Of a stretch of 64,000 nucleotides of DNA, positions 6,708-63,780 are shown in pieces. The notes below the pieces were generated by a model. That model was not told the DNA's origin. It was given only the letters and a program-made list of their open reading frames with translations, and did no database searches. The number at the start of each line of letters is the position of its first letter. Positions within the stretch are counted from its first letter, which is position 1. The DNA is taken from NCBI RefSeq assembly GCF_963921235.1, contig NC_086107.1, positions 106,766,001 through 106,830,000 of the forward strand. The letters are read 5' to 3'. Both the position numbers and the translations under genes were made by a program. This DNA is from Mobula hypostoma (taxonomy: Eukaryota).

Positions 6708-6830
6708 CACAAGGAAATCTGCAGATGCTGGAATTTCAAGCAACACACATGAAAGTTACTGGTGAACGCAGCAGGCCAGGCAGCATCTCTAGGAAGAGGT
6801 ACAGTCGACGTTTCGGGCCGAGACCTTAAG
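6708..6830 (-). mobile_element. Short Penelope-like terminal-repeat insertion, 14-bp TSD
   Basis: AGGTGTAGGGTAAT at 6694-6707 and 6831-6844; truncated inside hammerhead stem II. Confidence 0.8.
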
Positions 6831-8144
6831 AGGTGTAGGGTAATAACTGTTCCTGAACCTGTTGGTGTGGGTCCTGAGGCTCCTGTACCTCCTCCCCAGT
6901 GGTGTTAACAAGAAGAGGACCTGGCCTGGATGGTAGCTTTACTGTATTGTATGCTAATGAAACATATCACAATGAAAGAGAGAGAGAGATTCCAGACTAT
7001 TGAGTATAAAAGTGGATCGAAAGAGAAGGTTCTAGAGAAAGCCACAACACGAGGGGTATATAGACAGGGTAAACGCAAGTAGCTTTTTTCCACTGACATT
7101 GGGCGAGACTAGAACTAAAAGTCATGGGTGAAAGGTGAAATGTTTAAGGGGAATATCGGGGGGACTTCTTCACTCAGAGGGTGGTGAGAGTGTGGAGTGA
7201 GCTGCCAGCAGAAGTGGTGGATATAGGTGTAATTTCAACATTTAAGAGGATCTGGGTAAGTACATGGATGGGAGGTGTTTGGAGGGCTATGGTCCAGTGC
7301 AGGTCAATGGGATGAAGCAGATCAATAGGCCAGCATGGACTAGATAGGCCAAAGGGCCTGTTTCTGTGCGGTAATGTTCCATGACTGGATGAAAGTACAA
7401 GGAGCACAGAGAGGAAGTGGAGCGGCTGGTGGATTGGTGTGAGATGAAAGGAAATCATTTAGGATGAACCATCCCCCATGGCTCCTTTGTAGAGAGAGTC
7501 AAGTGCACCAAGCTCCTGGGACTTCACATCATGGAGGACCTCAACTGGTCCTCCAATACCACCTCCCTGAACAAGAAGGCACAGTAGTGCCTCCACTTCC
7601 TCAGCAGGTTGAGGCAAATGTGTCCCCCCCCCATCTTAACTGCATTTTACAGGAGCACCATTGAGAGCGTCCTGACAAGTTACATCGCCACCTGGTATGG
7701 GAGCAGCCAAGCAATGGACTGGAAATCCCCCACAAAGGACTGTGAGAATGGCTGAGGGGATTATAGGGGCTTCCTACCATTCACCTGGGACATTTATCAG
7801 GAGTACTGTGTACGCTGGGCCCTTAGCATTATCCTCTTTGACTTTCTACCATCAGGCAGAAGCCTCCAATGTATAACAACAAGAACGGTCAGGATGGAAA
7901 ACAACTTTCTTCCCTCTGACCACCAGGCTTCTGAACTCTCTGCTACAACGCATTCGAAGCGTGACTGGTTAATCTGTTCTGTACCCTACAATATTTATTT
8001 TATGGCTTAGTTTTTGCATAATTCATCCGTAGATTTTATCCTTACTTTGTTGTGTATGTTATGTGTACTACTGTGCTTTACACCCCAGTTCGGAGAAAGA
8101 TCTCATTTGAGAGTATACACGTATATAGTTAAATGACAAACTTG

Positions 8145-8592
8145 AATGTCATATGTTGAAAAATTGGAGCGACTGGGCTTGTATACACTGGAATTTAGAA
8201 GGATGAGAGGGGATCTGATTGAAACATATAAGATTATTAAGGGATTGGACACGCTAGAGGCAGGAAACATGTTCCCGATGTTGGGGGAGTCCAGAACCAG
8301 AGGCCACAGTTTAAGAATAAGGGGTAGACCATTTAAAACAGAGTTGAGGAAAAACTTTTTCACACAGAGGGTTGTGGTTCTGTGGAATGCTCTGCCTCAG
8401 AAGGCAGTGGAGGCCAATTCTCTGGATTCTTTCAAGAAAGAGTTCGATGGAGCTCTTAAAGATAGCAGAGTGAAGGGATATGGGGATAAGGCAGGAACAG
8501 GGTACTGATTGTGGATGATCAGCTATGATCACAGTGAATGGTGGTGCTGGCTCAAAGGGCCGAATGGCCTACTCCTGTACCTATTGTCTATT
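8145..8592 (+). mobile_element. CR1 LINE 3' fragment
   Basis: LGLYTLEFRRMRGDLIETYKI...RTRGHSLRI...FFTQRVVVLWNALP; tail CCTATTGTCTATTG. Confidence 0.92.
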
Positions 8593-9844
8593 GACTTGAA
8601 AGGGAAAATAGAAATGTTTCAATATTCTTAATGTAGCTTAGTCTCTTGTAAAGCACTTTGGGATGTTGTGTTATGTTAGGGTCACTAGGTAAGTGGAAGC
8701 TATGTAGTTTGGTGAAGATTTCCTTGGACTTTAATCCCACAGCTTTGCCTGCATAGTCAGATCAATTCTCTGGTTTTGGCAGGGATTGGGGCAACAGCAG
8801 GGTCTGGAGGCTGTGCTGACATCCAGGGAACTGGCTTGGAAGTAGCACTGCTCTTTACACACTGTGCACCTTACAGGATTTGACTGGAATGCTGCCAGAA
8901 CATCTCCCCTCCCACCCCTTGCCCATCTGCTTGGGAATTGTGGCTCTGCTAACTTGCGTGAGAATTGTGCCCTGCTCACTCAGTTTCCTGCCTTCCCCAA
9001 GCCAGTTCCTGTCAGCCACGGTCTTCTTTCTAATTATTTCTCTGACCCTTTCAAGCTGTGAGACGCTTCGGTTATTTTCTGATTTCCCTCTTTCCATCTC
9101 ATTAGTCAGGTGTCAAGAGCAGGGAACTGCAAAGAATGAGATCTAAAATCACGAATAGTAACAGGTCAGAGTTACAAAGGGATGAGGGATTCTTCTTTTT
9201 CAAGTGGAAGGCAGACGAAATAAGCTATAATTTTGCTAGAGAATGGTGAACCTTCTTCCAGATGAATGAGTGAACCCTGAACAGCATTCCCACTCACTCC
9301 CTATTTTCTTTTGCATTCTACATTAAGCTCCACCCTGCTTCCCTGAGTTTCTTTCCATCGAGGATGCTAATCCTCCGGTGACCTTAACGGAGATAAATAC
9401 ACGCAAACAGGTGCATGCACGCACGCTGGGGAGGAGGAGAGAGCGAAAGAGGGGAGAGGGGAGAAGAGCGAGAGAGCCAGGGACACAGATGCTGTCGCCG
9501 TAAGCAGTGAGCCACGTTGGGAAAATTACACAGAGCAGACATGATTTGATAAAGCGAGGCGCAGAATACAAGAGCAAGCAAGTCGTGGTGAACCTTTGTG
9601 AAGCACTGACTCAGCTGCAGCTGCCCTGTTCTGAGTACCACACTTGAGAGGATGTAGCAGTGATTTGCCAGAATGTTTCCAGGCATGGGGTATAGACTGC
9701 AGAAGCTCACACTGGTACAGGGGCAGATGCAAGGGGAGCTGAGAGAATGGAATTTAAATCACAGAGTATTGTTATTACCATTGGTAGAGGGGGGGCAGGA
9801 ACAGGGGCCACTAGAAAGATAACTGGCAAAACAATCAAAAGTGA

Positions 9845-10100
9845 TTTATTTATTTATTGAGATACAGCATAGAATAGGCCCATCCAGCCACAGCACCCAG
9901 CAATCCCCCGATTTAATCCTATCTTAATCACAGGACAATTTACAATGCCAATTAACTTACTAACTGGTACCTCTTTGGACTGTGGAGGAAACCCACGCAC
10001 TCACAGGGGAGAACGTACAAACTCCTTACAGGCAGCGGCGGGAATAGAACCGGGGTCACCGGTACTGTAAAGCATCGTGCTAACCACTGTGCAGCCATGC
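9845..10100 (-). mobile_element. V-domain tRNA SINE
   Basis: Reverse-complement homology to 17456-17722. Confidence 0.8.
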
Positions 10101-10261
10101 CATTACAACCACTTATCTGAACTGCTGGGATTGTAGTGAAGGTACATCTGCAGCAGAGGGCAAGGCAGATTTGATTATGTTTCAAAGCGAGCTGGATATT
10201 TGAGAGAAGGGGCTATGGGGTGAGGGAGGGGAGTGTGACAAATTGGATTACTCCTATGTGG

Positions 10262-10810: not shown

Positions 10811-10818
10811 TCATAGAG

Positions 10819-11055: not shown

Positions 11056-12206
11056 TCTTATAGAGAGCCAGTACAAATTTGGAAGACCGAATGGCGTTAT
11101 TTCATGCTGCAGCCATTCTCGTATTCAGAGACACTGATACACAGACAGACAAGATCAACAAGCCCGCTGGAGAAACAGAAATGTGACCTCCAGTCAACAT
11201 TTAATCGTGCACCAAAGACATACACACACACCCTTGTGTGTCAAAGTGGTGCCGGTGTTTATCGATGGATAAGCCACAAAGGGTCCCTGTTTTTCTGTGG
11301 CCCATGACATTCTGTGATAAACAATGGCCCCTAACTGATGGATTGGAATTTGCCGAAGGGTTTCGACCCGAAATGTCGACTGTGCTTTTATCCATAGATG
11401 CTGCCTGGCCTGCTGAATTCCCCCAGCATTTTGTGTGTGTTGCTCGGATTTCCAGCATCTGCAGAATTTCTCTTGTTTGTCATTGGAATTTGTGCTGTAC
11501 GTCACTGACAAGCAAAAGATTAAACCTATTCCCATGCAGTCTACAACAAACAGAAATGGTTCAAGTACAAATGGTTAAACAAGTCGTACTCTGACATCAT
11601 CACAGGTCAGCCTCTGATTGGATGCCCTCCCGTACGTCACCTCCTGCAAGTTGGATTGGATGAAAGCCCAATAAATGGCCCCAGTGCTATTCAGCTCGGA
11701 AACCAGGCACTAATCACTGCGGACATTCTCTTCTGAAATCTCGTTGTGAGAAATAACTCTGGGCAGATCCAATTGTTTTCCCCTTGAACAGAGATGAAGC
11801 TGTCCTTCAATGTCGATTAAATCAAATACAGGACGCCTGAATATGCAGATGCTCAAATCCATATACAACCTTCCTCCAAATCTAGCTTAATATAGAACCC
11901 TGCAACGGAGGATCCTATGTAATTGTAAGACATCCTATAAGTAACGGCTTGTATTTGTACAAATCACTCCCCGTCACCAGGCATCAATCCTTACTCCAGA
12001 AGCACTCTTACAACTCCAGTGTCTGTCGTCATCAAAGGAAGGCAGAGAAAATTACTGCCATTTTGATCTGAATAACAACTCCTCTTTGATACCGAGGTGG
12101 AAGTAGATAAGAGAATTTTTGTTTTAAAACATCAGGTTGCCGTGAGCAACACACACAAAATGCTTGAGGAACTCAGCAGGTCAGGCGGCATCTATGGAGA
12201 GGAAAA

Positions 12207-12245
12207 CAGTCAACATTTCGGCCCGAGGGCCTTCCTCAGGATTGG
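12207..12245 (-). ncRNA. Minimal hammerhead motif variant
   Basis: Minus strand AAUC-CUGAGGA-A-GGCC-CUCG-GGCC-GAAAUGUU-GACUG. Stem II sequence differs from the other copies but still pairs. Confidence 0.5.
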
Positions 12246-12389
12246 AAAGGAAGTGGGGAGATGCAAAAATAGAAAGGTGGGGGGAGGAGAAGGAGCGTGA
12301 ATGTTTGAAGAAGGGAACAATTGCGTGGCTAGGCACAGCTCAAACACCATCTATAAATTTGTCAACGACACAACTATTGTTGAAAGAAA

Positions 12390-20750: not shown

Positions 20751-23663
20751 GATTCATTTTTCTGTGGGCATATTCAGCAGATCTAAAGAATGGTAACTAT
20801 GACAGGAAATAGAAGGCAGCGTTGAGTTGAGGAGGTGGGAATGCGACATAGTAGAAATCTGTGGAATTCATTGCCATTGCTTCCTTTTTCCACAGTAGTC
20901 TGACATCTCTGCACTCTAGTTCTGAATTCCTGCTCAATAACATCTCAGCTCCTTCACCATCATTAATTTCCAGTGAAGGTCACTTTGGATACCCCAGGCT
21001 GATTCCTGCTCCCTTCCCAAACTTCTACAAGTCAACCCCTTACCGTCCTTTCATTCTGACCAATCTCCCAATCTCTCATCCCTTTCCCGGAAAGAGAGCA
21101 GAGAAGATTTACCAAGATGCTGCCTAGACTTGGGGCCTGAGTTTAAGGAGAGGTTGTGTGAACTAGAACTTTATTCCCTGGAACTGAAGAGTACGATGGC
21201 AAAGATAAATGAAAGGTTTAACATATCAGGAGAATTTGATGGCTTGAGCCTGTACTTGGAGTTTAGAAGAATGAGGGAGGATCTAATTGAAAACTATTGA
21301 ATATCAAAAAGCCTGGATAGAGTGGATATGGAGAGGACGCTTCCAAAAGTGGGGGAATCTAGGACCAAGGGTCAGCCTTAGAACAGAAGGGCATCTCTTT
21401 GGAACAGAGATGATGAGGAATTTCTTTAGCTAGAGGGAAAGAGGAATTTCTTTAGTCAGAGGGTGGTGAATCTGTGGAATTCATTGCCACAAAGGCTGTG
21501 GAAACCAAGTCATTGTGCTGATAGTTTGATAGGTTGATAGTTTCTTGATTAGTAAGAGCATCAAAGGTTACAGGGAGAAGACAAGAGAATAGGGTTGAGA
21601 GGGATAATAAATCAGCCACGATGGAATGGTGGAGCAGACTCAATTTGCTGTTTTTATCAAGGACGAGAATTTTAAGATTAAAATGTTTCCAGGACCCAGC
21701 CTGTGGGGAGTATTGGCTGCATGGGACCTACCACAAGCTGAGCAATGGGAGTCTGCTTTCTCATAAACACATGGACAAAGCAGAGGACCCAGTTGATTCC
21801 AAGCAGCCTAAAACTCAGGATAAAGAAATTGGACTGAATTGTCTTTTGGAAATGGGAGCTAAATTACATAGAGGAAAAGGTGACAAAGCACTTGGACCTA
21901 GAGTTATAGAAGAATATTTCCACCCACTGAGTCTTGGAACTGAAACGTTATTAGAGATACAATAAATTCTAAAGATGCTGGAAATCTTGAGCAACAAACA
22001 CAACATGCTGGGTCCCCTCAGTGTTTTGTGTGTGTCTCTGTTTCTCTTTCCATAGATGCTGCCTGATCTGTTAAGTTTTTCTAGCACTTTTCACTTTTGT
22101 CTCACATTTCCAGCTTTTGCAGTTGAGGGGACTGACTGATGGGACGGTTAGACAGAGATATTGATCAATGGTGCAATTGAGAAACAGTTGAGTAGATGCG
22201 TGGAGGAAGGGATCAAGGGATGTGTAGAAATGAGGCTGGCAATCTCTTCTTGTATGGTCACGGACAGGGCAAAGAACTTTAATCTATTCAGCCTAGAGCA
22301 GACCAATAGCAGGTTTAAAATAAGATCAATAGGTCATGAAGACGACTCCTGTTTTGGACAATCCAATCAACACTGGCTTCAACCATGAACCACTGCCATG
22401 CTGCTGTTTCTCATAGACAGGAGGGAACTCCTTAATGTGTTATTGGTTTGTTGACAGCTGAAATTCTCCCTTTGCAAGGGACTTTTTAGGTACAGCTTCT
22501 TCTCCCCTGCAATCAGATTTCTGAATGGACAATGAATCCATGAACACTCTCTCACCATTTTTTCTCTCTGTTTGCACTATTTATCATTTTTATACGTATT
22601 CTTCCTATAATTTATAGTATTTTATGTATTATACAATATAATAAATAAAATTTACTGTACTGCTGCTGCAAAACAACAAATCTCACGACATTAGTGATTA
22701 TAAACCTCATTCTGGGTTGAGCTGTTCTCTGATCTTGGCAATTTAATTGCAAACATTTCATCACCGTGCTAGGAGACATCATCACTGCGCTGTTGATTGT
22801 GGTGTGTCCTCTGAATGCTTGGTCACAGAGTCACAGAACAGTACAGCACAGAAACAGGCCCTTTGGCCCATCTAGTCCATGCTGAAACCATTTAAACTGC
22901 CTCCTTCCATTGACCTGCACCGGGTCCATAACCCACCAAGCCCTACTATCCATGTACCTTTCCAAACTTTGAAATCAAGCTCACGTGCACCACTTGTGCT
23001 GGCAGTTCATTTCACACTCTCACGGCCCTCTGAGTGAAGACGTCTCCTCATGTTCCCCTTAAACTTCTCACCTTTCACCCTTAAGCCATGACCTCTAGTT
23101 GTAGTCCCACCCAACCTCAGTGGAAAAAGCCTATCTGTACTCCTCATCAATTTGGTTATGGTCTTTAAAACTTTATCAGCTGAATAGACGTCATTTCGGA
23201 AACTCAGTTGTGATGTGGGGAGGAAATCCCATTGCTGATTGGCAGTGTGGTGAACTTCATACATTGTGGTCTAGAATTTTGCTCGAATCAGCTCATTCAA
23301 ACCCAATTCTGATTGGCGCCTTAATTGGTCAGTAGTTGCACCATTCAATTATATGCTTGACGTTTCGTTTTTCGAGATATCCCCCTCTTCAATGAAAGGA
23401 CAGAAGGACAGGAACTCCACAGTTATGCATTTGTTTTCTTGAGCCTGGGTATAGACTTTCCATTCTTGGCTATCTCAAGGGGGCCTCTGTTTATAGGAGG
23501 AAGGAGGGGAGGTCATTTATGGGAAGGGTTCAGTTGATGTTCCACCTATCTTGGGTGTTGGGTCGAAGGAGCCAACCTGACGATGTTGATCATTTACCAC
23601 TCAATCTTTGCAGAGCATTTCCCTCTGTCAGCAGTCACTCCCAAATAACTATCAGTACTGGCA

Positions 23664-29213: not shown

Positions 29214-29386
29214 CACAAACACGAGAAATTCTGCAGATGCTGGAATTTCAAGGAACACACATAAAAGTTGCTGGTGAATGCAGCAGGCCAGGCAGCATCT
29301 CTTGGAAGAGGTACAGTCGATGCTTTGGGCCCAAACCGTCGACTGTACCTCTTCCTAGAGATGCTGCCTGGCCTGCTGCGTTCACT
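29214..29386. mobile_element. Fold-back Penelope-like insertion, 14-bp TSD
   Basis: AGAAATGTGAACTA at 29200-29213 and 29387-29400; near-perfect palindrome 29274-29385. Confidence 0.85.
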
Positions 29387-29580: not shown

Positions 29581-32394
29581 CTCTAAGGTTTACAGAGAAT
29601 GGTGCAAAAAACAGAAATACATACAGTGAGTGTCAGTGCTGTAGGTGAAAACTGTTAATGAGAGAGGTCAGAGGAGAATGGCTAGACTGGTTCAAGCTGA
29701 CAGCAATTTAAATAACCATGCGTTACAACAGTGGTGTTCAGAAGAGCATCTCTGAAAGCACAGATGTCTAACCTTGAAGTGGATAGAAGCAGAAGACCAC
29801 GAACCTACACTCAGTGGCCACTTTATCTAATAAAGTGGCCACTGAGTATAAGTGGCTTTTAAACTCATTGCAAAAATAAAAGATTACGCATCACATTGCA
29901 TCAATCACAACCTACTTACAATTTATTCACTTGTAACACATTTATCCCTTTAATTTTGAAGGGAATATCAATATGTTTCCTCTACATATTCCTGGAATAT
30001 GGCCATATGATTTGCATTTCTGGAACTAAACCAATATTTAACTGGAATTCGACTTCCCATTTCTCCAATTCTCCTCAGAGCTCAGCCTGTACCGTGATCT
30101 CTGCTGTGAATGTGTTGCGCCCCTCCTCACCCGATACCCACTTCAAAGCTCCAAAGGTGCAAAGTTTCACTTATTATCAAAGTACGTATGCAGTATACAA
30201 CTCTGAGATTCATCTTCTCCAGATAGCCAAGAAACGAAAAAAAGCCATGGAGGTTGTTCATAGAGAAACATCGAAGCCCAATATCTCCCCCCCCCCGACA
30301 CACACACACACAAAAAAGAATGGCAACATGATTATCAATCTCCCCAAACTTCCCCACCCCCCCACACAAAATAGAACAAGAACATTGACCCCCCGCAACC
30401 ACACTGTCCCGCACAAAAAATCTATGAGAAAAAACAGGTAAAAATACAGAATATAAAAAACTTGGTAGAAGATTTGATCATAGGGTCATAAGTTCAGAAA
30501 CAAGCCCTTTGGTCTACACTAACCCTTAAAGATCCATTTACATGAATCTCATCTTATTGTCCTCCTATTCATAAGACACAGGGCAGAATTAGGCCATTTG
30601 ACTCACCAGGTCCCATTCAGTAATCCTACTCAAAGTTTGAAGTTCAAAGTACATTTATTATGAAAGTAGGTATACATTATACAACCTTGAGATACGTCTC
30701 CTTACAGGCAGCCACAAAACAAGAAACCTAAAAGAACCCATTAAAAAAGACCGACAAACTCCCAGTGTGCAGAGAGAAAAAGAAACAAAAGCAACATGGA
30801 TAAGACGTTGCCAACAGAGGGAGAGTCCAGGACCAGAGGGCAGAGTCGCAGAATAGAAAGACATACCTTTATAACAGAGATGAGAGGTATTTCTTTAGTC
30901 AAGGGGTGGTAAATATGTGGCACTCATTGCCACAGATGGCTATGGAAGTCAAGACATTGGACATATTTAAAATGATTATATACAGATGTAAGGGTGTCAA
31001 AGGTTACAGGGAGAAGGCAGGAGAATGGTGTTGAGAGGGAGAATAAATCAGATATGGTCAAACAGCACAGTATACAAGACAAGCTTTTCACTGTATCTTG
31101 GTATATAAAAAACCAATACCCATGCTTCCAAGACAAGGACATGAAATTATGTCCAAATCACTATAGCAGCTCCCCATTAAAATGACTCATCTCCCCACTC
31201 AACATACACACTCTATTTACTTTCTGCCACAGGTCAGAGTGCGTGCCTACTAACCCATATCCTGCACTGCTGACCAGAGATCTGTCTCGCTGACCACATC
31301 ACATCCCCAGCCACGCACTGGGCTCCTCCTTCATGAGGAAGAAGGAACTCCTCTCAATCCAAGGAATGATTAGAACGCGAGTCTGATGAATGTAGTTTAG
31401 CGAGCCCTGGGGACTAGGGATTTTCTCAAAGGCAATAATGTTTTCATTTAGTTGGGGAGGTACTTATTTTGGGAATTCTTTCCTCAGTTCAGCTGCTACA
31501 TCAAACATTACAACACAGTACAGGCCCTGCAGCCCACGATGTGGGTGCCGACCTTTTAACCTATCCTAAGATCAATCTAACCATTCTCTCCTACATAGCC
31601 CTCCATTTTTCTATCATCCACATGCCTATCTAAGAAATTCTTAAATGCCCCCAATGTATTTGCTTCTACTACCACTCTTGGCATGGCGGCCCACAGACCC
31701 ACCACTCTCTGTGTAAAGAACTTAACTCTGTCATCCCCCCATACATTCCTCCAATCACCTTATAATTATGGTCCCTTGTCCTTTCCATCCTGGGAAGATG
31801 TCTTTGGCTGTTCACTCGGTCTATCATTTTGTTCACCCCTATCAAGTCATCTCCTATCCTCCAAGAAATACTGTGATTTGTACAAATGTGCGAATTAGGG
31901 TCAGGAATAGGCCATTTAATCTCCTTGAGCCAATTCCACCATCCAGTAAGATCATGATCCATTCGTAGCATCAATTCCATATTTTCATGTTTTATTTTTA
32001 TAACTCCGCTTTAAAAAAAATCCAAGGTGAGACACACACACTGATGTTTCAGTTCGCTGTTGCACAGGGTTTACGCATCTCTGCACTGAACTGAGGCTGT
32101 GGTCTGCAACTAATCAGCTGTGGACTCACTTTCGTGAACTTGAGTTCTGAATGCTATTTGCTTATTGTTATAGTTTGGACAATTTGTTTTTTTTTAAAAC
32201 AGCACATTGGGTGTTTGACAGCCTTCTTGTGCTTTAATGGGTTCTATTGGGTTTCTTTGTTTAAGGAGATGAATCTTGAGGTGGTATATGAAGCATACAC
32301 ACTTTGATAATAAGTGCAATTTGAACTTTGAACTTTTAATGGAAGTTTAAAAACAAAATCCAACAATATGTATTTGGATATTGGACACTTAAAG

Positions 32395-33670: not shown

Positions 33671-33871
33671 AACACTCACAACACGCTGGAGGAACTTGGC
33701 AGGTCAGGCAGCATCGGTGGAAAAGATCGGTCGACGTTTCGGGCCGGAACCCTTTGTCTGGCCCGAAACGTCGACCGATCTTTTCCACGGATGTGGCCCG
33801 ACCTGCCGAGTTCCTCCAGCGTGTTGTGAGTGTTGCTTTGACCCCAGCATCTGCAGATTATTTTGTGTTTA
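33671..33871. mobile_element. Fold-back Penelope-like insertion, 15-bp TSD
   Basis: TTTCTTCCCTCAGGC at 33656-33670 and 33872-33886; inverted arms 33669-33745 / 33760-33836. Confidence 0.85.
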
Positions 33872-35689
33872 TTTCTTCCCTCAGGCCACTGGGCTTCTGA
33901 CATCCCTGCCGCATCGTACTCGAAGTGGCGCTGGTTATTCTGTTCTGCACCTTACAATATTTAATTTAGGCACACAATTTGCTGGAGGAAGTCAGCAGGC
34001 CAGGAAGCATCTATGGAAAAGAGTCAACAGCTGACGTTTCGGGCCAAGACCCTTCATCAGGACTAATATTTACTTTATGCACCTTAGCTTGTTATTTATG
34101 TGTGACTCATCTGTAGATTTTATCCTTACTTTCATAAGTTATCCTGTATAATGTGAGTTATGTGTACTACCGTGCTTCACACCCTGGTGAGGAGAAACAT
34201 TTCGTTTCTAAATACATTATATAGCTATTTACATTATATGGTTATATATGTTACATATATTATATGGCTATAAATGTTATATACATGTATCTAGCTAAAT
34301 GACAATAAACTTGACTTGACACATACCGGTGATATTAAACCTGATTCTGACTAACGTTTTTTCATCTTTTATTTTCATGTTTGCACTATAAGAGAACTTT
34401 GAATTATAGTAGTGTGTACCATGGACAGCATTCTGACTGGCTGCATCACCATCTGGTATGGTGTTGGGGGGGGTGGGTATTGCACAGGATTAAAATCAGT
34501 TGCTGACAGCTCTACCCCGGGGCACCACCCCTCCCTAGTATCCAAGACATCTTCGTGAAGCTGTGCCTTAGCAAGGATTTAAGGACACCATTAAGGACCC
34601 CCACCACCTAGGACAAGCCCTCTTCACGTTGCTACGGTCTGGGAGGAGGTACAGAAGCCTGAAGGCACACACTCAGCGATTCAGGAACAGCTTCGTCCCC
34701 TCTGCCATCCAATTTCTAAATGGACATTGACCCCATTACTACCTACCTCACTACTTTTTAATTTCTGTTTTTGCTCTACCTATTTTAATTTAACTAATAG
34801 ATATATATTTACTGTAACTCAGTTTTTTCCCCCTCCATATTTATTTATCATGTATTTCAGAGTACTGCTGCCGTAAAGTTAACAAATTTCACGACATATG
34901 CTGGTGATTCAGTATGAAGGGTTCTCTATAAATAAGTTATTATTAATGTAGTCCAGATCAGCAAGGCAAGGCCAACCAACCTGAGATACTTGCAATCCAG
35001 CAGATTCCAACTGGTGTAACATGCATTAGCACACATGGGGAAAGGCACGAGGCACGTATTGGTTCTTAATGAACACACATCGGATTATCAGGGTGCTTTG
35101 AACAACTCTTATGTCACACTAGCACCTTATCTTGCTTCAGTGAGGGGTGATTTTGCTCATCCTCTCACTATCTCGCCATGCCCGGACTCACGCGCAATCA
35201 GCCTGAACCAGCTCCCGTATCGCTGCGGCTTCCCCGCTCTGGGCCACCTGAGTTATGGTGGCTGCTCTTCCCGAACTTCTCCCCCCTACAAGTCAAGCTC
35301 AATTAACTCTGCTCCGTGAGGCCGTGTTTAACCACTTCTCCCTGCATTGTTTAACCCTCTCCCCTGGCTCTTGGTCTACATTAACCTCCACTCCTCAATT
35401 GGCATTCCAGTCCGGATCAGCCCGCTTTTCACTTTCTTACCCCGCCATCACCACCCTCCTCTTCCAGCCACGTCAACCCAACAACTCTCAACCCCAATCC
35501 TGGCCTACATCGAAACTTCTCCCTCAGCCACTGTTAAACACACTCCACACTGTGTGAAACCACTGTTAAACACACTCCATACTGCCTTAAACCACTCTGC
35601 TCTCCAGGCCTACATTAACCCACTCTTCACCCTAATGTGATAAACCCAAGAGATCTAAAGCAGCATTAACCACCTCACCACCACAGTCT

Positions 35690-37475: not shown

Positions 37476-37577
37476 CCAGCTGACAGCCCGGAGTATGGTC
37501 TGAGGCTGCCTGAGGAATGTGACGGGGTCAAAGGCGCCCCCAGCCTTGCCAGCTCCATAGGCTGCTCCGGTCTCCAT
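37476..37577 (-). CDS. SYNGR1: Synaptogyrin coding exon 1 (34 codons, METGAAYGAGKAGGAFDPVTFLRQPQTILRAVSW), most similar to synaptogyrin-1; downstream exons not found in window
   Basis: Translation matches the synaptogyrin-1 N-terminus as I recall it (YGAGKAGGAFDP...RQP.TILR.VSW). ATG is in a good Kozak context (AAGATGG). A perfect phase-0 donor TGG|GTGAGT lies at 37475. Paralogue assignment (SYNGR1 vs SYNGR2/3) is by eye. Confidence 0.88.
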
Positions 37578-39019: not shown

Positions 39020-39615
39020 CAATGGCATCTATTTTGATTCCAATCCCCATTCCCATTCCAACATGTTGCTCCATGACCTCCTCTACTGCCATAATGAGGC
39101 CACTCTCAGGTTGGAGGAGCAACACCTCATATTCTATCTTCGTAGCCTCCAAACTGTTGACGTGAACATCAATATCTCCAAATTCCAGTAATGATTCCCC
39201 TTCCCCTTCCCTTTCCCTCTGCTAACTTTCCTCTTTCCTCTTCCCTCTTCTTTAATTCCCCACTCTGGCCCCCCCCTTACACCTTCTCTTCTCCTCAGTT
39301 GCTGTTAAGTCCCCCTGGTGCCCCTTCTCCTTCCCTTTCTCCCATGGTCCACTCTCCTCTCCTGTCAGATTCCTTCATCTCCAGCCCTTTCCCTTTCCCA
39401 CTCACCTGGCTTCACCTATCACCTTCCAGCTTGTCCTCCTTCCCCACCACCCACCACTACCTTCTTTCCCCTTCCTTTCCAGTCCTGATGAAGAGTCTTG
39501 GGCTGAAATGTTGACTTTTATTCATTTCCATAGACGCTGCCTGACCTGCTGAGTTCTTCCAGCGTCTTGTGTGTGTTGCTCTGGATTTCCAGCACCTGCA
39601 GAATCTCCTGTGTTT
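39020..39615 (+). mobile_element. Penelope-like element 3' fragment: end of GIY-YIG endonuclease ORF, pyrimidine-rich UTR, hammerhead (39481-39516), terminal repeat
   Basis: Frame ...HSHSNMLLHDLLYCHNEATLRLEEQHLIFYLRSLQTVDVNINISKFQ* resembles the Penelope endonuclease C-terminus. It is followed by AGTCCTGATGAAGAGTCTTGGGCTGAAATGTTGACT. Confidence 0.75.
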
Positions 39616-40257
39616 CTGAGGTTCAAAAACCCTCTTTACTGATCTCCCCCCCAAAAAAAATTCTGTTGGATTCTTTCGAAGAGCATGCAGGTCTTCGATT
39701 AAATCACTCCTGTCAAAAGCAGCACATCCAAAGGTGCTGCCCTCCTCTGTTAGCACAAGAGATTCTGCAGATGCTGGAAATCTGGAGTAAGACATGCAAA
39801 ATGCTGGAGGAACTCAGCAAGTCCAGCAGCATCTATTGAGATGAATAAAGAGTCAACATTTTGGGCTAGAATGGCTTCTTCTGTCTTCCTTTCACCTCTT
39901 GATGAAGGGTCTTGCCCCAAAATGTCGACTGGTTATTCCCCTGTCCGACCTGCTAAGTTACTCGAGCATTTTTTGTGTGGGGCTTCTTTGTAACTGCTTT
40001 GGGAGACTCAGCCCAGATCTCTGCACTCCCATCTCTGGCGTGGAACCGAAGGTAAGGTTGTGCTGATTAAGGGCTCAGAGGATTTGCAACTGTACATTGA
40101 GGAACCCCAGGTACTTGGGATCCAAATGTCAATTGGGACAGACAGGCGGATTACCCGGATCGAGCCAGAATTGTCCCAATAGAAGTAGGAGGCAACGTAA
40201 CTGCCTGATCTTGCCATTTCTCAGGCTAGACAGGGAAAGCAATTCAATATCCCTTTG

Positions 40258-41315: not shown

Positions 41316-41482
41316 GACGCAAACACGAAGAAATCTGCAGACAACAGGAATTCTGCAGATGCTGGAAATTCAAGCAACACACATCAAAGTTGCTGGTGAA
41401 CGCAGCAGGCCAGGCAGCATCTGTAGGAAGAGGTACAGACGACGTTTCGGGCCGAGACCCTTCGTCAGGGTCAGGGTCTCGG
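41316..41482 (-). mobile_element. Short Penelope-like insertion with hammerhead core and a micro-inversion at its 5' end, 10-bp TSD
   Basis: TCTGAACAAT at 41306-41315 and 41483-41492. Minus strand CTGACGAAGGGTCTCGGCCCGAAACGTC; inverted AGGGTCTCGG at 41473-41482. Confidence 0.8.
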
Positions 41483-44799: not shown

Positions 44800-45234
44800 A
44801 TATTTCAGTATGAACATAGAATTCTCCAACTTCCGGTTATTCCCTCCCCCTCCCTCTCCCCTATCCCAGTTTCACTCTGCCCCGTCCCCCAGCTGCCTAT
44901 CACCTCCCTCACAGTTCCGCCTCCATCTACTACCCATTGTGTTTTCCCCTATTCCTTCTTCACCTTTCCTGCCTATCACCTCCCTGCTTCCCCTCCACCA
45001 CCCCTTTATCTTTCCCCTTACTGGTTTTTCACCTGGAACCTACCAGCCTTCTGCTTCCCACCCTCCCCCCACCTTCTTTATAGGGCCTCTGCCCCTTCCC
45101 TCTACAGTCCTGACGAAGGGTTCCGGCCCGAAACGTTGACCGATCTTTTCCACTGATGCTGCCCAACCTGCTGAGTTCCTCCAGCGTGTTGTGAGAGTTG
45201 CTTTGACCCCAGCATCTGCAGAGTATTTTGTGTT
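44800..45234 (+). mobile_element. Penelope-like 3' fragment inserted in a CR1 copy, 12-bp TSD
   Basis: TAGATATTTCTA at 44788-44799 and 45235-45246. Starts at the ORF end (MNIEFSNFR). Hammerhead at 45105. Confidence 0.8.
45105..45142 (+). ncRNA. Minimal hammerhead ribozyme motif
   Basis: CAGUC-CUGACGA-A-GGG-UUCCGG-CCC-GAA-ACGU-U-GACCG; core intact, GUU triplet, one stem I mismatch. Confidence 0.6.
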
Positions 45235-47978: not shown

Positions 47979-50094
47979 ATAACAGGATCAATGAAAGACC
48001 GAGCAAAAAAAAAAACACAAAGAGCTGGAAGATCTCTGCAAGTCAGGCAGCATCTGTGGAGGGAAATGGACAATGGCTCTTCCTGTTGAGACCTTTCAGC
48101 TGGATTGAAAAATGAAGAGGAGATAGTTTGTATAAAGGGTGATGAAAAGTTTGGTCAGAGAACCAGATGTCGTGGTATTTCCTCAAAGGGGAAGGAGAGT
48201 GTGGGGTTTGGAGAGGGAATTCCAGAGCTCTAGACCTGGATCTGGGGCAGTTAGAGGCAATAGCGGACTGACTAAATTCAGGTATGATCCAGAGGGCAGA
48301 ATTGGAGGAACCCATAAATCTTAGTGGCTTTACAGAGGGGGAGAGGGGAGTGTTGCAAAGACTTATCCCCTAGTAATAATGATCATTCAGGCACAAAGAT
48401 CATCTGTAGTTACTGACAAGTATCTTTATTGTCTCAACAGAAGAGCACATGAATACCTATTTGCACACCTACTAAGGTTTCCTGACCGTCCATAAACTGT
48501 CAAAGAATAGAAGAGGTAATACCCTGAAAAGGAGTCTACACTGACCGTATGTTCCTCGTGGTCCCTATCTAATCTCCACGTGTCCGTGGGGTACTCCACT
48601 TCCGTGATGGTTGGCCTCTGAAGAGTTGTCGCTGCTTTGCATCCAAAGCCTCTGTTTTTATATTCTTTCCTTACTACTTCAAATGTCACATTTGAATCTC
48701 ATTGGCTGTGGGTGGGTCATCTGATGACCTATATCACTTTCTTATTGGCTCTGGTCCAAGTCAGCATCCATTTGTTGCCCTTCATCCACAAGTGGCAACT
48801 GGTGAAATCAGTTACCAGCTTGAATCACTCATGGCAGACACAGACCCCACCATTCACAAACCTTCAATGCTACATCAGACCAAAGAACATCCCACAAACA
48901 ACTTCTTATTTGGAAATTACCTCTAATCCAGCAGATTACCTGGAGCATCATTGTCTCTACTTTAAAACACTGACTCAGCCAAGCAAAACCAGTTCACAAA
49001 ATGGAGGATGCAGAGCAGCTTCACAAAATGGCAGCCTTCATTCCTTCAACCTCATGGCAAGAACAAAAGACGATCGGTCTATCTGCTTCCACTTCCCTTG
49101 ATTCATACGAATTCACTGATTTGTAGACTGTAGTTCTTTCTGGCCAACAAAGGGTACCAGATCAAAAATATTGCAGATATAAGAAATCTGAACTAGATTG
49201 GAAATACTCAGCTGGTCGACAACATCTGTGGAAAGAGAAGCAGACCACATACAGATTAGGAGACTGCTTTTCACAGCACCTCTGTTTTGTCTACAGACAT
49301 GACCTGTCAATTCAATTCTCTGTCCCTCTCCCAGGATGACCTATCATCTGTAGCCTGCTCTGTTTTAATCAGGCCAAAAATAAACTTGAGGGACAGTATC
49401 TCATCTTCAGTGTGGATATTTTGCAGCCTTTGGGATTCGGTATCAAATTGAACAATTTCAGATAACTTTTTTTTTCTGTTCTGTTTGTATCCAGTCTGGC
49501 CAGTTCCACTGTAAGGTTATCCAGCTGTAAAATTAACTCAGCTTGTCTCTCGGCATGGACAGTGCCTGATTTCCACCATTCTCCAACTGGTTTCAGCTTT
49601 CAGCACCAGCTCTGCCCTGCATTTCACAGAACTTGCATGTCTCTTTGTTTCCCGTCTCTAACGACCCATCTTCAATCTACCAACCAGAGGGTTTCATAAA
49701 CAGCAGAATCACCAGCCTCACCCTATCTGAGACATCCCTTTTGTCTTAAACCAGCCCTCCAATACCCACTCTGGAACTTAAAACTACCTTGTTTTATCAC
49801 TTTCCAAAATTCCGGTGGAAGGTCTTCAATTGGAAGCAGAAATCCTGTTTCCCTTCCAGCATTGATCTGTTCCAACTCTCATAACAATCCCATCCCTCCA
49901 GCAAAACACACAAAATGCTGGAGGAACTCAGCAACCCAGGCAGCCTCTGTGGAGGGGAATGAGTGGTTGCCATTTTGGACCAAGACCCTTCATCATAACT
50001 CAGCCCTCCACTTATTGCCCAGTAATCTCTTCTCTCTTTCACAAATGTCTATCAACACCGCCCTGTTTCTCCTAGTTCCAATTTACATATTGCA

Positions 50095-50645: not shown

Positions 50646-51114
50646 CTCTTACATTCAGCCTGTACTGATGCCGCCTATCAAGACACAAGACAACGTAGAT
50701 GGTGGATTCTGGAGTTATACAGCCGGAGGAGCTCAGGTGGTCAGGCAGCACGTGTAGAAGAAATGGATAGTTGACATTTCAGGTCGCGATCCTTCATCTT
50801 GTGTGAAGGTGTAGAGTGGGGATAGCTAATAGAAAGATATGAGGGAGTGGGGTGGGCCAAGAGCTGGCAAGTGATAGGTGGACTCAGGTGAGGAGAGGTT
50901 GATTGGCAGATAGAGTCAGCCGAGGGCGGGAGGAGTGCAAATACCTTTAGAGGCTGGGAGGCAACAAAGGTCTGCAGGTGATGGAATCTGATAGGAGAGA
51001 AAGGTGAAGCATGGAACCAAATAAGGGAGGTGGGAACAGTGGTCAGGAGGACCCACTGGAGGATGCAGGACATCTGCAGTCCAGGCTTCTGCTCTACTCT
51101 TGAAGGCCATCAAC

Positions 51115-51964: not shown

Positions 51965-52428
51965 ATGACATGGCGGTCCTCGGCCTCCTCTGTGCCGAGA
52001 TGAGGCCACCCTTGGGGTGGAGCAGCATCACCTTATATTCCATCTGGGTAGCCTCCAACCTGATGGTATGAGTATCAATTTCTCCTACCAGTTAAAAAAA
52101 AATTTTTCCCCCTCCCCTCTTCTTCTACTCCACATTCTGGCCTCTTACTTCTCACTTGCCTATCACGCCCCCCTTCCTTTTCTCCTACTGTCCACTCTCC
52201 CCTCCTGTCAGACTCCTTCCTCTCCAGCCCTTGACTTTACCCACCCACCTGGCTTCACCTGTCACCTTCTAGCTACTCCTCTTCCCTTCCCTCCACCTTT
52301 TTATTCTGGCGTCTTCCCCCTTCCTTCTCAGTCCTGAAGAAGGGTCTGGGCCTGAAACGTCCACTGTTTGTCCATTTCCATAGAAGCTGCCTGACCTACT
52401 GAGTTCCTCCAGCATCATGTGTGTGTGT
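51965..52428 (+). mobile_element. Penelope-like element 3' fragment
   Basis: Frame EQHHLIFHLGSLQPDGMSINFS, pyrimidine-rich UTR, hammerhead at 52329, same terminal repeat as 39481-39615. Confidence 0.75.
52329..52366 (+). ncRNA. Minimal hammerhead motif, closing pair of stem I mutated
   Basis: CAGUC-CUGAAGA-AGG-GUCUGGG-CCU-GAAACGUC-CACUG. Confidence 0.5.
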
Positions 52429-52860
52429 AACTTTGATACGAACCATTCAGAGTATTTTAGGGACCTGCAGATTAATTCCCAGCCTCTTCCTGATGGTGGA
52501 GGTGTTTCTTTAATCTTCCGCCGTTCGTTGCATTTTTATTCAATCTATAATTGAATCTTATTGGGTTTCCTCATGAATAAAACAACAAGTGCTTCACTTT
52601 TTCAGCAGTCAAATGAAAGTCAAGAATATCCCAAACTGAACAGCGTGTCTGTTGGTGCTGAAACATATTGGACAGATCCTGCCGTGTAGGTGTGAGCTCT
52701 AAGTGAATGTGACCTTCCAACCTCCAAAGATAAATGCAGATATAATAATTAAACTTCAAGTGGGAATTGGTAATGCATGCATGCCCAAGTCTGGATTGAG
52801 TTGTAACTGTTACTTGGCTAAGTACCTTGTCAAAATCCATTTGCTCTGATGCTGTCGCTG

Positions 52861-53410
52861 CACACAATGGCCACTTTATTAGGTACAGGTTCTGCCTAAT
52901 AAAGTGGCCGCTGAGTGTGTGTTCGTGGTCTTCCGCCACTGGCACCCATCCTTTTTAAGATCCAACGTGTTGTACATTCAGAGATAGTCTTCTGCACCAC
53001 CACTGTGGTTACGTGTGTATTATTTGAGTTACTGTCCCCTTCCAGTCTGGCCATTCTCCTCTGACCTCTCTCATTAACAAGGCCTTTTCACCCACATTAC
53101 TGCTGCTCGCTGGATTTTTTCTTTCTTTTGCCTTATGCACCATTCTCTGTAAACTCTAGCGACTGTTGGGCGTGAAAATCCCAAGAGGTTAGCAGTTTTG
53201 GAAATACTCAAACCACCCTATCTGGCACCAACAACAATTCCCCAGTCAAAGTTACTTAGATCACTTTTCTTCCCCATTCTGATGTTTGGTCTAGACAACA
53301 ACTGAACCTCTTGACCATGTCTGCATGCTTTTATCTATTGAGTTGGGGCCACATGATTGGCTGGATAGATATTTGCATTAACGAGCAGGTGTACAAAGGT
53401 ATCTCATAAA
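52861..53410 (-). mobile_element. Non-autonomous Tc1-like element, same family as 29055-29848
   Basis: Reverse-complement homology throughout; TIR-derived TGGCCACTTTATTAGGTAC at left end. Confidence 0.75.
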
Positions 53411-57907: not shown

Positions 57908-58390
57908 CAGTACTGTGCAAAAGCCTTGTGCATATGTGAAAAAAAATTCTGTAAAGTGAAGGTGCTTTCGAAAATAATGAAATGAAAAGTTTCTAAAGTA
58001 TCAAAAATTTACTATAAAGAACAGTAAACAGTGACAAAAAAAATGAAATCAAATCAATACAACACACACAAAATGCTGGAGGAACTCTGTAGGCCAGGCA
58101 GGAATAAACTGTCGAAACTTCAGGCCGAGACTAACTTTATCAGGACTAATCAAATCAATATTTGATGTGATCACCTTTAAATCTGCATCAATTCTCTCGG
58201 GTACATTGTCATGCAGTTTTATAAGAAAATTAGCTGGTAGGTTGTTCCAAGCATCTTGGAGAACTTGCCACAGTTCTTCGGCAGACTTTGGATGTCTCAC
58301 TTGTTTCCCTCTTTCCAGGGGGTCCCAGACAGCCTCGATGATGTTGAGATCAGGGATCTGTGGAGGTTATAAGAATTTTGCATAATACTG
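57908..58390 (-). mobile_element. Internally deleted Tc1-like element with TIRs
   Basis: TIRs CAGTACTGTGCAAAA / TTTTGCATAATACTG. Minus strand encodes PDLNIIEAVWD and PKSAEELWQVLQDAWNNLP (Tc1 C-terminus). Contains a Penelope-like insert at 58060-58147 (TSD AATCAAATCAATA). Confidence 0.8.
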
Positions 58391-59692: not shown

Positions 59693-59815
59693 CATGGACT
59701 ATGCAGTTCACATTATGATGTGTTCTTAGTATCTGGTTACTCCTTTCTTATAACAACATACATCAAAGTTGCTGGTGAACGCAGCAGGCCAAGCAGCATC
59801 TATAGGAAGAGGTGC

Positions 59816-59851
59816 AGTCGACGTTTCAGGCCGAGACCCTTCATCAGGACT
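59816..59851 (-). ncRNA. Minimal type-I hammerhead ribozyme motif (Penelope-like terminal repeat)
   Basis: Minus strand AGUC-CUGAUGA-AGGGUCUCGGCCU-GAA-ACGU-C-GACU: stem I AGUC/GACU, intact core, GUC triplet, palindromic ACGU in place of stem III. Confidence 0.7.
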
Positions 59852-61640: not shown

Positions 61641-62010
61641 AAATCTGAAAAGAACTTTCAGTCAAGATGCGCCTGAGTACAATGCTCTTTCGGTCGACAT
61701 CTTCTGGATAGATCATGAAATCATATATTTCACTTATATTATGTCTTTTACATTTGTTTTTCATCTTGAATGTGATTCTGGAATTGTTGGGGCCTGTGCT
61801 TTGTACTTTGGAGATCATTTGGGTGTTTCAGCGCTCTGCAGTCTCTGAGAGGATTCCGGGAGATAGAGGCAGCGTGATCGAACCTCATGACGAGGAGGCT
61901 GCGGGATGGGGCTTGAACCGATGTCCGACTCCGTTTCACTGATTAAATCTTCTATTGTTCACAGATTAAAGTACAAGGGAGATCGAAACATCGAGGTGAA
62001 TGCAGAAAGT

Positions 62011-62517
62011 GATCGCTGGTGGGATCGCTCTGCTATGGAGAGGGGAGACTGTGTTTTGATCGATGGTGGGATCGCTCTGCTATGGAGAGGGGAAACCGCC
62101 TTTTGATCGCTGGTGGGATGGCTCTGCTATGGAGAGGGGAGACTGTGTTTTGATCACTGGTGGGATTGCTCTGCTATGGAGAGAGGAGACTGTGTTTTGA
62201 TCACTGGTGGGATTGCTCTGCTATGGAGAGGGGAGACTGCGTTTTGATCACTGGTGGGATTGCTCAGGTATGGAGAGGGAAGACTGTGTTTTGATCGATG
62301 GTGGGATCGCTCTGCTATGGAGAGGGGAGACTGCATTTTGATCACTGGTGGGATCACTCTGCTATGGAGAGGGGAGACTGCGTTTTGATCACTGGTGGGA
62401 TTGCTCTGCTATGGAGAGGGGAGACTGCGCTTTGATCACTGGTGGGATTGCTCTGCTATGGAGAGGGGAGACTGTGTTTTGATCACTGGTGGGATCGCTC
62501 TGCTAAGGAGAGGGAAA
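62011..62517. repeat. Minisatellite, 47-bp unit, 10 full copies plus 1 partial
   Basis: GATCRCTGGTGGGATYGCTCTGCTATGGAGAGGGGAGACTGYGTTTT starting at 62011, 62058, 62105, 62152 ... 62481. Confidence 0.95.
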
Positions 62518-63349
62518 CACCTGCTGCTGTGTCCAGAAATTGTTACCCAGGATTTTCTGCTTTCTGGATATGGATTTGAACTATAGACTTTTTTTTTATT
62601 GGTCTTACAGATTTTTTCATATTCTGTGTTGTCCCCCAATCTTTCTTGTCTGTTTTTTGTGTTCAGGGGCGGGGGATTTGGGGGTTAATGTGCCTGTCCG
62701 TTTTAGTTAGTTTTTTTGTGCGGGAAAGAAGGAATTGGTGGGGTGGGTTGATGAAGATGGTGCTGCCGTTCTTTTCCTTCTCAGTTTCATGGCTATCTGG
62801 AGAAGAAGAATTTCAGAGTTGTATTTTTGATAATAAGTGAACCCTTGAACCTTTGAACCTCAAAAGTATGAGAAACAAACCGGCTGATAGATTGGAGCGT
62901 GCCATTGAATATCAAGGGCTAACGTATAAGGAATGAACGTCAGAGTCATAGCAGCTTATACATTCCTTTCTGGCTCAAAAGTGCAGCAGAAAAAGTGAAC
63001 ATCAGTGAGAGCGAACCTTCGAGAAATTCAGCTGCTTGGTCTAATTTTGGAACCAAAGCTGTTAGGAGTTCTGGGGCTGCGATGTCCCTGTAAAAAGCCA
63101 CAAAAAAAAACCTGAATCAGATGAAATCTGAGTGAACATCAATTTCAGGATCGGAATCAGATTTAATATCACTGGCATATGTCGTGAAATATGTTGTTAT
63201 GTAGCAGCAGTACAATGCAATACATAATTAAACTGTAGATTACAGTAAAAAGTATATATAGTTAAATAAGCAGTGGAAAAAGGGAACAAGAAAGCAGTGA
63301 AGTAGTGTTCATAGGTCAATGTCCATTCAGAAATCTGATGACAGTTTGG

Positions 63350-63780
63350 AATTTCTCGTAATTCACCCCCCCCCCCCCAATCTTCTTCCATTCCCCACTC
63401 TGGCCCCCCTCTTACCTCTTCTCTTCTTCTCACCTCCGCTTGGTAACCCTCCTCCTTCCCTTTCTCCCACTCTCCTCTCCTGTCAGATTCTTTCTTCTTC
63501 AGCCCTTTACCTTTTCCACACCTATCACCTCCCAGCTTCTCACTTCATTCTGCCCCCCCCCCACATCTCCACCCACCTATCTTCCCCCTCACATGGCTTC
63601 ACTTATCACCTTCTAGCTTGTAACTCCTTTCCCTCTCCCTACCTTCTTATTCTGGCTTCTTCCCCCCTCCTTTCCAGTCCTGATGAAGGGTCTCGGCAAA
63701 AGCTGTTTATTCCTCTCCACAGACCTGCTGAGTTCCTGCAGCGTTTTGCGTGTGTCACTCTAGATCTCCAGCATCTGTAG
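63350..63780 (+). mobile_element. Penelope-like 3' UTR / terminal repeat fragment, hammerhead degenerate
   Basis: Pyrimidine-rich UTR, then CAGTCCTGATGAAGGGTCTCGGC with the GAAAC half damaged, then the same tail (CCAGCATCTG). Confidence 0.65.

What the first reader, a model, noticed from the sequence alone, without database searches (positions are those of the whole stretch)
6708..63780. Dispersed minimal hammerhead ribozyme motif in the window's most frequent short repeat
Seen: the recurrent repeat contains (C)AGUC-CUGANGA-A-GGG-loop-CCC-GAA-ACGU-H-GACU(G). Best copies are 59816-59851(-), 45105-45142(+), 52329-52366(+), 39481-39516(+), 34028-34065(-), 41436-41468(-) and 12207-12245(-). Decayed copies lie near 11355, 39900, 49975, 50780, 58125 and 63680. 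Stem II varies while keeping pairing (GGGU/GCCC, GGCC/GGCC, AGG/CCU). Stem III is only a palindromic ACGU, and there is usually an extra A after the CUGANGA box. Established: Penelope-like elements carry minimal type-I hammerheads thought to cleave as dimers through a palindromic stem III, and longer copies here follow a Penelope endonuclease C-terminus. Inference: a very high-copy hammerhead family exists in this genome, and minus-strand copies in the synaptogyrin intron (12207, 34028) could supply partners within one transcript.
Basis: partly seen in the sequence, partly recalled or inferred. Interest (0 to 1): 0.7.

Follow-up and report, generated by a model that had tools for sequence, protein, structure and literature searches.

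The report
Penelope stubs carrying decayed hammerhead motifs
These repeats are short, separately inserted and mostly broken ends of a very abundant Penelope-type jumping gene that carries an already known tiny hammerhead RNA motif, and they are unlikely to cut the host gene's RNA; many begin right at the motif's front edge, likely because the copied RNA starts there.

Summary
The motif is real. All seven named copies keep the hammerhead core letters and the extra A, but only two (59847-, 45110+) keep both stems intact next to the core. The repeat is the 3' end (pseudo-LTR) of a Neptune-type Penelope-like element. Evidence: an endonuclease C-terminus upstream, 11-15 bp target duplications, head-to-head pairs and an optional ~33-nt tail. 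The extra nucleotide and the palindromic stem III are published traits of such elements, so the family type is known. Variation among copies is mostly CpG decay; covariation does not beat shuffles. The idea of dimer partners inside the synaptogyrin intron fails: both named copies have broken stem I, they lie 22 kb apart, and the nearest partner is predicted to be locked in a long hairpin. Of 29 arms, 22 span the cut site and none begins there, so the templates were uncut or re-joined. Seven arms begin within 6 nt of the motif's front edge, at an initiator-like sequence. The scan has already reported this family and this 5' clustering on other DNA of this genome.

The parts
59815..59851 (-). 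Intact minimal type-I hammerhead motif (C3 at 59847) at the 5' edge of a ~100-bp stub (about 59753-59851) without tail; begins at the A of stem I (offset -4)
   Evidence: 9-bp flanking repeat
44800..45234 (+). 5'-truncated element: last codons of the endonuclease, pyrimidine-rich 3' region, hammerhead with intact core and 3-bp stem I (45106-45142), tail; 12-bp target duplication
39061..39620 (+). Longest copy: endonuclease C-terminus (39063-39191), ~290-nt pyrimidine-rich region, hammerhead (39480-39517) with broken stem II, tail
51965..52436 (+). Copy with endonuclease C-terminus (about 51993-52085) and hammerhead (52329-52366) mismatched at the pair closing the cut site; no tail
33969..34064 (-). 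Stub in synaptogyrin intron 1, sense; starts at offset -4; core intact, stem I broken at the cut site; 13-bp target duplication with one mismatch
12142..12297 (-). Copy in intron 1, sense; core intact, stem I mismatch, palindrome decayed; carries the only double change in stem II
41319..41482 (-). Stub starting at offset -1, preceded by a ~12-nt inverted piece of stem II; tail present; 13-bp target duplication with one mismatch
33671..33871 (.). Head-to-head pair joined inside the hammerhead, tail on one arm only, 15-bp target duplication; predicted RNA hairpin of -148 kcal/mol
29214..29386 (.). Head-to-head pair joined in stem II, tail on one arm only, 14-bp target duplication; no CUGANGA box
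39753..39985 (.). Older head-to-head pair, tail on one arm only; G12 mutated in both arms
6708..6830 (-). Stub with tail, homology from offset +7, lacks the CUGANGA box; 14-bp target duplication
11353..11481 (+). Stub with tail starting inside the core box; 11-bp target duplication
58060..58147 (-). Decayed stub starting at offset -4, no tail; exact 13-bp target duplication
49900..49999 (-). Decayed stub starting near the hammerhead front edge
50722..51054 (-). Old diverged copy with upstream pyrimidine-rich region
63372..63784 (+). Copy with upstream region and a deletion through the GAAA half of the motif
48015..48111 (-). Heavily decayed copy
1315..1577 (.). Diverging pair: one arm ends just before C3, the other starts at offset +32; neither holds the core
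21954..22089 (.). Rearranged cluster of tail and body fragments
37476..37577 (-). Synaptogyrin coding exon 1 followed by a GTGAGT donor; intron 1 appears to run past the window start
   Evidence: E 1.5e-10 to PDB 8a6m synaptogyrin-1

Best explanation
The repeat is the hammerhead-bearing 3' end (pseudo-LTR) of a Neptune-type Penelope-like retrotransposon, scattered as separate short insertions that are likely catalytically silent relics in the host intron. Shown: an endonuclease C-terminus upstream, target duplications, head-to-head pairs, two alternative 3' ends ~33 nt apart, CpG-biased decay, and 22 of 29 arms spanning the cut site. Inferred: the element's enzyme nicks DNA and primes reverse transcription at one of two internal sites downstream of the motif, on RNA that is uncut or re-joined. 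It often runs off an RNA 5' end at the first base of stem I, probably a transcription start at an initiator-like sequence. That would give the ~95-130-bp stubs. The motif is predicted to fold shut as a monomer, so cleavage, if any, would need the element's protein and a tandem master copy.
For: The window peptide matches P0012 at 63% over 35 aa. P0012 has the RT YIDD motif, a CX4CxxC linker and a GIY-YIG with internal CxxC. That linker marks Neptune/Nematis and is absent from Penelope/Poseidon (PMC8557442 passages). Relatives of P0012 carry RT and GIY-YIG Pfam domains. Flanking direct repeats score 11 or more at 6 of 19 units and 10 at 2 more; 2% of 150 random pairs reach 11. 3' ends: 11 of 29 arms at +84..+96 and 9 of 29 at +123/124. 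In three head-to-head pairs the tail is on one arm only, as described for these elements. 5' ends: 7 of the 21 arms starting within 60 nt of C3 lie in -4..+1 (p 5e-5 against uniform), and 0 of 29 lie within 2 nt of the cut site. The A at -4 fits YYANWYY and BBCABW as +1 (consensus from PMC5287107). CpG positions differ in 31 of 132 cells against 38 of 387 elsewhere (p 2e-4), and G12 is A in 5 of 17 copies. In the monomer the core pairs with the cut site at P 0.82-0.97, and the double hammerhead is 6.5-7 kcal/mol worse than two monomers for the two intact copies. In the anole element the hammerhead needs protein and is dispensable for insertion in vitro (PMC11167929).
Against: No full-length element or RT is in the window, so the clade call rests on a 35-aa link to a database protein and no tree was built. 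The uniform null for 5' ends is crude, boundaries are good to about 3 nt, and 11 copies seeded the profile that measured them. An initiator match is common by chance, and the same bases form a 3' splice acceptor. None of the three -4 junctions shows an extra G from a cap. Nearest-neighbour folding ignores tertiary contacts, Mg2+ and protein. Non-CpG core positions differ less than other motif positions (5 of 129 against 29 of 248, p 0.013, a biased test), which fits selection on the ribozyme in master copies.
Confidence: 0.8

Rival explanations
1. Dispersed sense copies in synaptogyrin intron 1 pair with each other and cut the host pre-mRNA.
For: 8 of 14 intronic arms are in sense. The 5' half of 34060 is intact and could in principle use an intact substrate half at 6825 or 12239. 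Dimers of such motifs cleave weakly in vitro (PMC4209133).
Against: Partners are 22-27 kb away with 9 bp of pairing. The full 34060/12239 pair is 5.8 kcal/mol worse than the monomers. The near partner is predicted to be sequestered, with pair probabilities of 0.0. No sense intronic copy passes the strict descriptor.
Confidence: 0.04
2. In tandem master copies the hammerhead cuts the transcript into unit lengths that may be circularised and serve as templates; the dispersed copies are by-products of that cycle.
For: This is the published model (PMC4209133). The core is identical across three subfamilies where covered. Re-ligated RNA would also span the cut site.
Against: None of 29 arms starts at the cut site and none ends there. 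In the anole element, uncut RNA is the dominant substrate and no RNA-seq ends were found at the site.
Confidence: 0.25
3. The 5' clustering comes from splicing or decay and not from a transcription start: the pyrimidine tract plus CAG that overlaps stem I is a 3' splice site, or a 5'-to-3' exonuclease stops at the foot of the hairpin.
For: The sequence directly shows a pyrimidine tract and CAG at -5..-3. In Drosophila virilis Penelope the intron ends at the 5' end of helix I.
Against: Three stubs (34064, 58147, 59851) keep the AG and abut target sequence with no shared upstream exon. A spliced template would start at -2 and carry exon sequence.
Confidence: 0.2

Closest known systems
Minimal hammerheads (min-HHR) in pseudo-LTRs of metazoan Penelope-like elements (Cervera and de la Pena 2014, PMC4209133; parts 1-2 of 4 read)
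   Same: Type I, helix I of 4-5 bp, extra nucleotide between 9 and 10.1, G10.1-C11.1, palindromic 15.2-16.2, mostly single dispersed motifs, pairs on opposite strands, thousands per genome (about 4,000 in coelacanth, 9,000 in Xenopus).
   Different: Helix II is only 4 bp here (7-8 bp in Schistosoma). No cartilaginous fish is named in the parts read or in the searchable supplement. Density here is 29 arms and 7% of the bases in 64 kb.
Neptune/Nematis EN+ Penelope-like elements (Craig et al. 2021, PMC8557442; Arkhipova et al. 2013, PMC3846280; passages read)
   Same: C-terminal GIY-YIG, CX2-5CxxC linker (in homolog P0012), frequent 5' truncation, inverted pseudo-LTRs, optional 30-40-bp tail on one end, short target duplications.
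   Different: Duplications are 11-15 bp here against 8-10 bp in the rotifer examples. 5' ends concentrate at the hammerhead front edge, which the passages read do not mention.
Poseidon PAc of the green anole (Frangieh et al. 2024, PMC11167929; parts 1-2 of 4 read)
   Same: Two 3' ends downstream of the hammerhead that define a tail; templates that span the cut site.
   Different: Different clade. The PAc ORF starts at stem II, whereas here the ATG in the core box is not kept (N7 is C in several copies) and its frame meets a stop after about 20 codons. The first 3' end here lies in a GU-rich tract, not an AC-rich one.
Non-LTR retrozymes (PMC7229834, listing only; bioRxiv 10.64898/2026.07.22.740005, part 1 and passages)
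   Same: Type I hammerhead, Penelope origin; reported in one chondrichthyan genome.
   Different: Retrozymes are defined as tandem arrays of hammerhead-bearing units; the copies here are solo or head-to-head, and none lies in a tandem array.

Membership tests
PLE minimal type-I hammerhead | CUGANGA and GAAA-UH core closed by helix I and helix II | tested here: met
   Majority sequence and 2 copies meet it fully; 7 of 22 keep all core letters
PLE minimal type-I hammerhead | Unpaired nucleotide between 9 and 10.1, and G10.1-C11.1 | tested here: met
   A in 12 of 12; pair 10.1-11.1 is GC in 8 and GU in 4
PLE minimal type-I hammerhead | Palindromic, unclosable helix III | tested here: met
   ACGU in 7 of 12 aligned copies and AUGU or AUGG in 5
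PLE minimal type-I hammerhead | Compensatory changes in the helices | tested here: inconclusive
   Not above shuffles in 12 window copies; contig pile-ups show mainly CpG changes
PLE minimal type-I hammerhead | Self-cleavage as a dimer or with protein | not testable with these tools
   Folding only; contigs cannot show RNA ends
Neptune-type EN+ Penelope-like element | C-terminal GIY-YIG endonuclease upstream of the pseudo-LTR | tested here: met
   C-terminal 35-58 aa match P0012; no direct Pfam hit for the short window peptides
Neptune-type EN+ Penelope-like element | CX2-5CxxC linker and CxxC inside GIY-YIG | tested here: met
   Met in homolog P0012 only, not in window DNA
Neptune-type EN+ Penelope-like element | RT phylogeny (Neptune versus Nematis) | not tested
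   No RT in the window; no tree built
Neptune-type EN+ Penelope-like element | Inverted pseudo-LTRs, optional tail, target duplication | tested here: met
   3 head-to-head pairs with a one-sided tail; duplications at 8 of 19 units
Non-LTR retrozyme | Tandem array with two or more hammerhead-bearing units | tested here: not met
   None of 28 tandem-repeat rows covers a hammerhead
Rfam hammerhead families | Covariance-model match | tested here: not met
   No hammerhead family among 8 matches at E up to 5; expected for a motif lacking helix III (inference)

The most novel reading that the evidence does not exclude
The hammerhead's first base is also the element's transcription start. Solo pseudo-LTR stubs would then make a short uncut RNA that carries the enzyme's priming sites and is copied in trans like a SINE. 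That would explain the huge excess of ~95-130-bp stubs and head-to-head pairs, with the hammerhead folded shut and not cutting during amplification.
Probability: 0.35. Interest if true: 0.5.

Novelty: new member of a known kind. Interest (0 to 1): 0.22.

Why it matters
As a ribozyme finding it is ordinary: Penelope-like elements of fishes, amphibians and reptiles are known to scatter thousands of such minimal hammerheads. It adds a very dense family from a likely cartilaginous fish, judged from the closest named homologs. The junctions bear on the open question of what the hammerhead does in Penelope transposition: copies span the cut site and start at the motif's front edge, which is directly testable by mapping RNA 5' ends. 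For the host gene, the likelier effect is double-stranded RNA from head-to-head pairs, not cleavage.

Tried and rejected
No whole genome is held, so there is no genome-wide count. Rfam gave no hammerhead match. Pfam on 80 stretches (77 of 219 listed ORFs plus 3 chosen by hand) gave nothing above cut-off. Word-index protein searches with two short endonuclease peptides found nothing; the Atlas gave no usable hit; the unindexed search succeeded. Motif scans of viral and metagenome contigs gave 0 matches each. No RNA holder was listed on record; the two runs guessed to be RNA are contigs and cannot show ends, strand or level, so expression and cleavage are untested. The loose-end table showed only 6 of 278 rows and did not resolve 5' boundaries. 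'Core versus flank' conservation was inconclusive, because non-CpG core and most flank sites both stay under the 7% listing limit and shares are alignment-biased. Summed contig depth was not used as a copy number. Rejected: an ORF start at the ATG in the core box; a retrozyme array; 5' truncation at the cut site; chance. Lunse et al. on dimer cleavage (PMC5785218) is not held and was seen only as a reference and through a review passage.
Full report
Observation. The seven named copies are at the stated coordinates. A profile built from them finds 28 fragments; a longer profile finds 29 arms covering 4,520 bases, 7% of the window. Apart from a tandem satellite near 35.7-37.2 kb, this family has the highest self-match multiplicity. 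A strict descriptor (core, optional extra base, stems I and II of at least 3 bp) finds 2 sites, 59847(-) and 45110(+), against 0.025 per shuffle over 200 shuffles. Five of the seven have a broken helix: 52334 and 34060 at the pair closing the cut site, 41468 and 12239 within stem I, and 39485 in stem II. The extra A is invariant in 12 aligned copies. Rfam has no hammerhead match.

Variation. In 12 aligned copies stem II is 91.7% paired, but almost entirely through one-sided changes; no measure exceeds shuffles. The motif holds four CpGs. These differ in 31 of 132 cells against 38 of 387 elsewhere (p 1.6e-4), and G12 is A in 5 of 17 copies; 4 of 22 copies were left out of this count as gapped or unalignable. 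Non-CpG core letters differ in 5 of 129 cells against 29 of 248 for other motif positions (p 0.013), but start-point fitting and subfamily differences bias that test. Contigs of one DNA run laid on the 52334 copy agree: the differences listed inside the motif fall on CpG sites or on that copy's own changes, plus the last stem-I base, and G12-to-A is about 9% (shares are alignment-biased). On the 59847 stretch 44,227 contigs of run X1 and 33,251 of run X5 (another organism code) were laid, about 5,500 of each only partly, and 1,395 of run X19 (a third organism code). This shows a very large family shared between organisms but is not a copy number.

What the element is. Upstream of the longer copies lie a ~300-nt pyrimidine-rich region and the end of an ORF. 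The 42-residue peptide at 39063-39191 finds 15 proteins at E up to 0.001; the six looked up are from a stingray, a skate and the whale shark. One of them, P0012, continues into an RT motif (YIDD), a CX4CxxC linker and a GIY-YIG motif with internal CxxC. It aligns to the window at 39000-39173 (E 2e-12) and 51993-52127 (E 1e-8), and its relatives carry RT and GIY-YIG Pfam domains. The linker marks Neptune/Nematis and is absent from Penelope/Poseidon (PMC8557442, passages). The insertion anatomy agrees. Flanking direct repeats of 11-15 bp score 11 or more at 6 of 19 units and 10 at two more, while 2% of 150 random pairs reach 11; 2 units have 9-bp repeats and 9 have none. Three head-to-head pairs carry the tail on one arm only. 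3' ends are bimodal: 11 of 29 at +84..+96 and 9 of 29 at +123/124 relative to C3; +124 is also the end of the profile, but target duplications abut five of those ends. Inverted pseudo-LTRs with an optional 30-40-bp tail are the described signature (PMC8557442; PMC3846280; passages).

How it most likely works. Twenty-two of 29 arms span the predicted cut site, and none starts within 2 nt of it, so their templates were uncut or re-joined there. Of 21 arms that start within 60 nt of C3, 7 start at -4..+1 (p 5e-5) and 13 at -9..+16 (p 7e-5) against a uniform null. Three stubs start exactly at the A of stem I. That A is the +1 of a match to both human initiator consensuses, YYANWYY and BBCABW (PMC5287107, passages), which are common by chance. 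The same bases also form a 3' splice acceptor, as at the helix-I edge of Drosophila virilis Penelope, whose promoter is internal (PMC2377424, passages). I infer that reverse transcription primes at one of two internal sites, as shown for the anole element (PMC11167929, parts 1-2 of 4), and often runs off an RNA end at the hammerhead's foot. A transcription start is my preferred cause. The monomer is predicted to pair its core with the cut-site strand (P 0.82-0.97), and the double hammerhead is 6.5-7 kcal/mol worse than two monomers for the two intact copies. This fits the low dimer activity reported for such motifs and the protein dependence of the anole ribozyme, which is dispensable for insertion in vitro. 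No cleavage was measured here.

The intron idea. Synaptogyrin exon 1 lies at 37476-37577(-), and no later exon was found in the window, so minus-strand copies below 37475 are likely intronic and in sense; 8 of 14 arms there are. Neither 12239 nor 34060 is intact. Their best pairing builds one core from 9 bp across about 21.8 kb and is 5.8 kcal/mol worse than the monomers. Half-motif estimates are slightly favourable (-2 to -4 kcal/mol with 12239 or 6825) but ignore distance and context. The only near partner, 300 nt away, is predicted to be locked in a long hairpin with its inverted twin, and forcing the trans core costs 82 kcal/mol. Double-stranded RNA from head-to-head pairs (-78 to -148 kcal/mol) is the likelier effect on the transcript (inference).

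Comparison and novelty. Every feature of the motif, including the nucleotide between 9 and 10.1 and the palindromic helix III, is in Cervera and de la Pena 2014 (PMC4209133, parts 1-2 of 4). It is a member of that class by sequence and context; activity is untested. It is not a retrozyme array. Four searches found no paper describing this family in sharks or rays. A 2026 preprint reports retrozymes in one chondrichthyan, but its supplements are closed, and file 1 of the 2014 supplement could not be searched, so prior description is not excluded. Earlier notes of this scan on other DNA of this genome report the same family, target duplications and 5' clustering. I had noted the AGTCC starts before reading them, took the target-duplication test and the RNA-start reading from them, and count them as leads, not support. 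A word search of the scan for the initiator or splice-acceptor overlap returned nothing. Verdict: real, a new member of a known kind, interest 0.22.

Noticed in passing
window 52322-52333 and equivalent positions in 39480, 45105, 63675 copies: A pyrimidine tract ending in CAG overlaps the 5' arm of stem I; it reads both as a 3' splice acceptor and as an initiator. The two sense intronic copies with an intact core lack a complete acceptor (12239: AG to AA; 34060: no tract).
   Followed up: partly
P0001, P0014 (database proteins): Host gene models (an ATP synthase subunit C-like protein of a stingray, neuromedin-U receptor 1 of a skate) end in this element's endonuclease C-terminus: exonisation or annotation artefact.
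   Followed up: no
window 41319-41340 and 41470-41482: One stub has a duplicated tail end and a ~12-nt inverted piece of stem II at its 5' junction, inside one target duplication.
   Followed up: partly
window 1315-1577: Diverging pair in which one arm ends exactly before C3 and the other begins after stem I, so the insertion lacks the whole core.
   Followed up: no
window 35746-37024: About 40 copies of a 32-bp satellite start ~450 bp into synaptogyrin intron 1, next to the CpG-rich exon 1 region.
   Followed up: no
window 62010-62514: About 11 copies of a 47-bp tandem repeat at 91% identity.
   Followed up: no
window 29803-29853, 52856-52922: Short palindromic repeats matching Rfam mir-9256 below its gathering score; likely ends of a DNA-transposon-derived element.
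   Followed up: no
run X19 laid on window 59807-59816: A third organism's contigs show a stem-I change (T to A at position 1.4, about 20% of depth) not common in X1 or X5; a compensating change on the 5' arm could not be seen.
   Followed up: no
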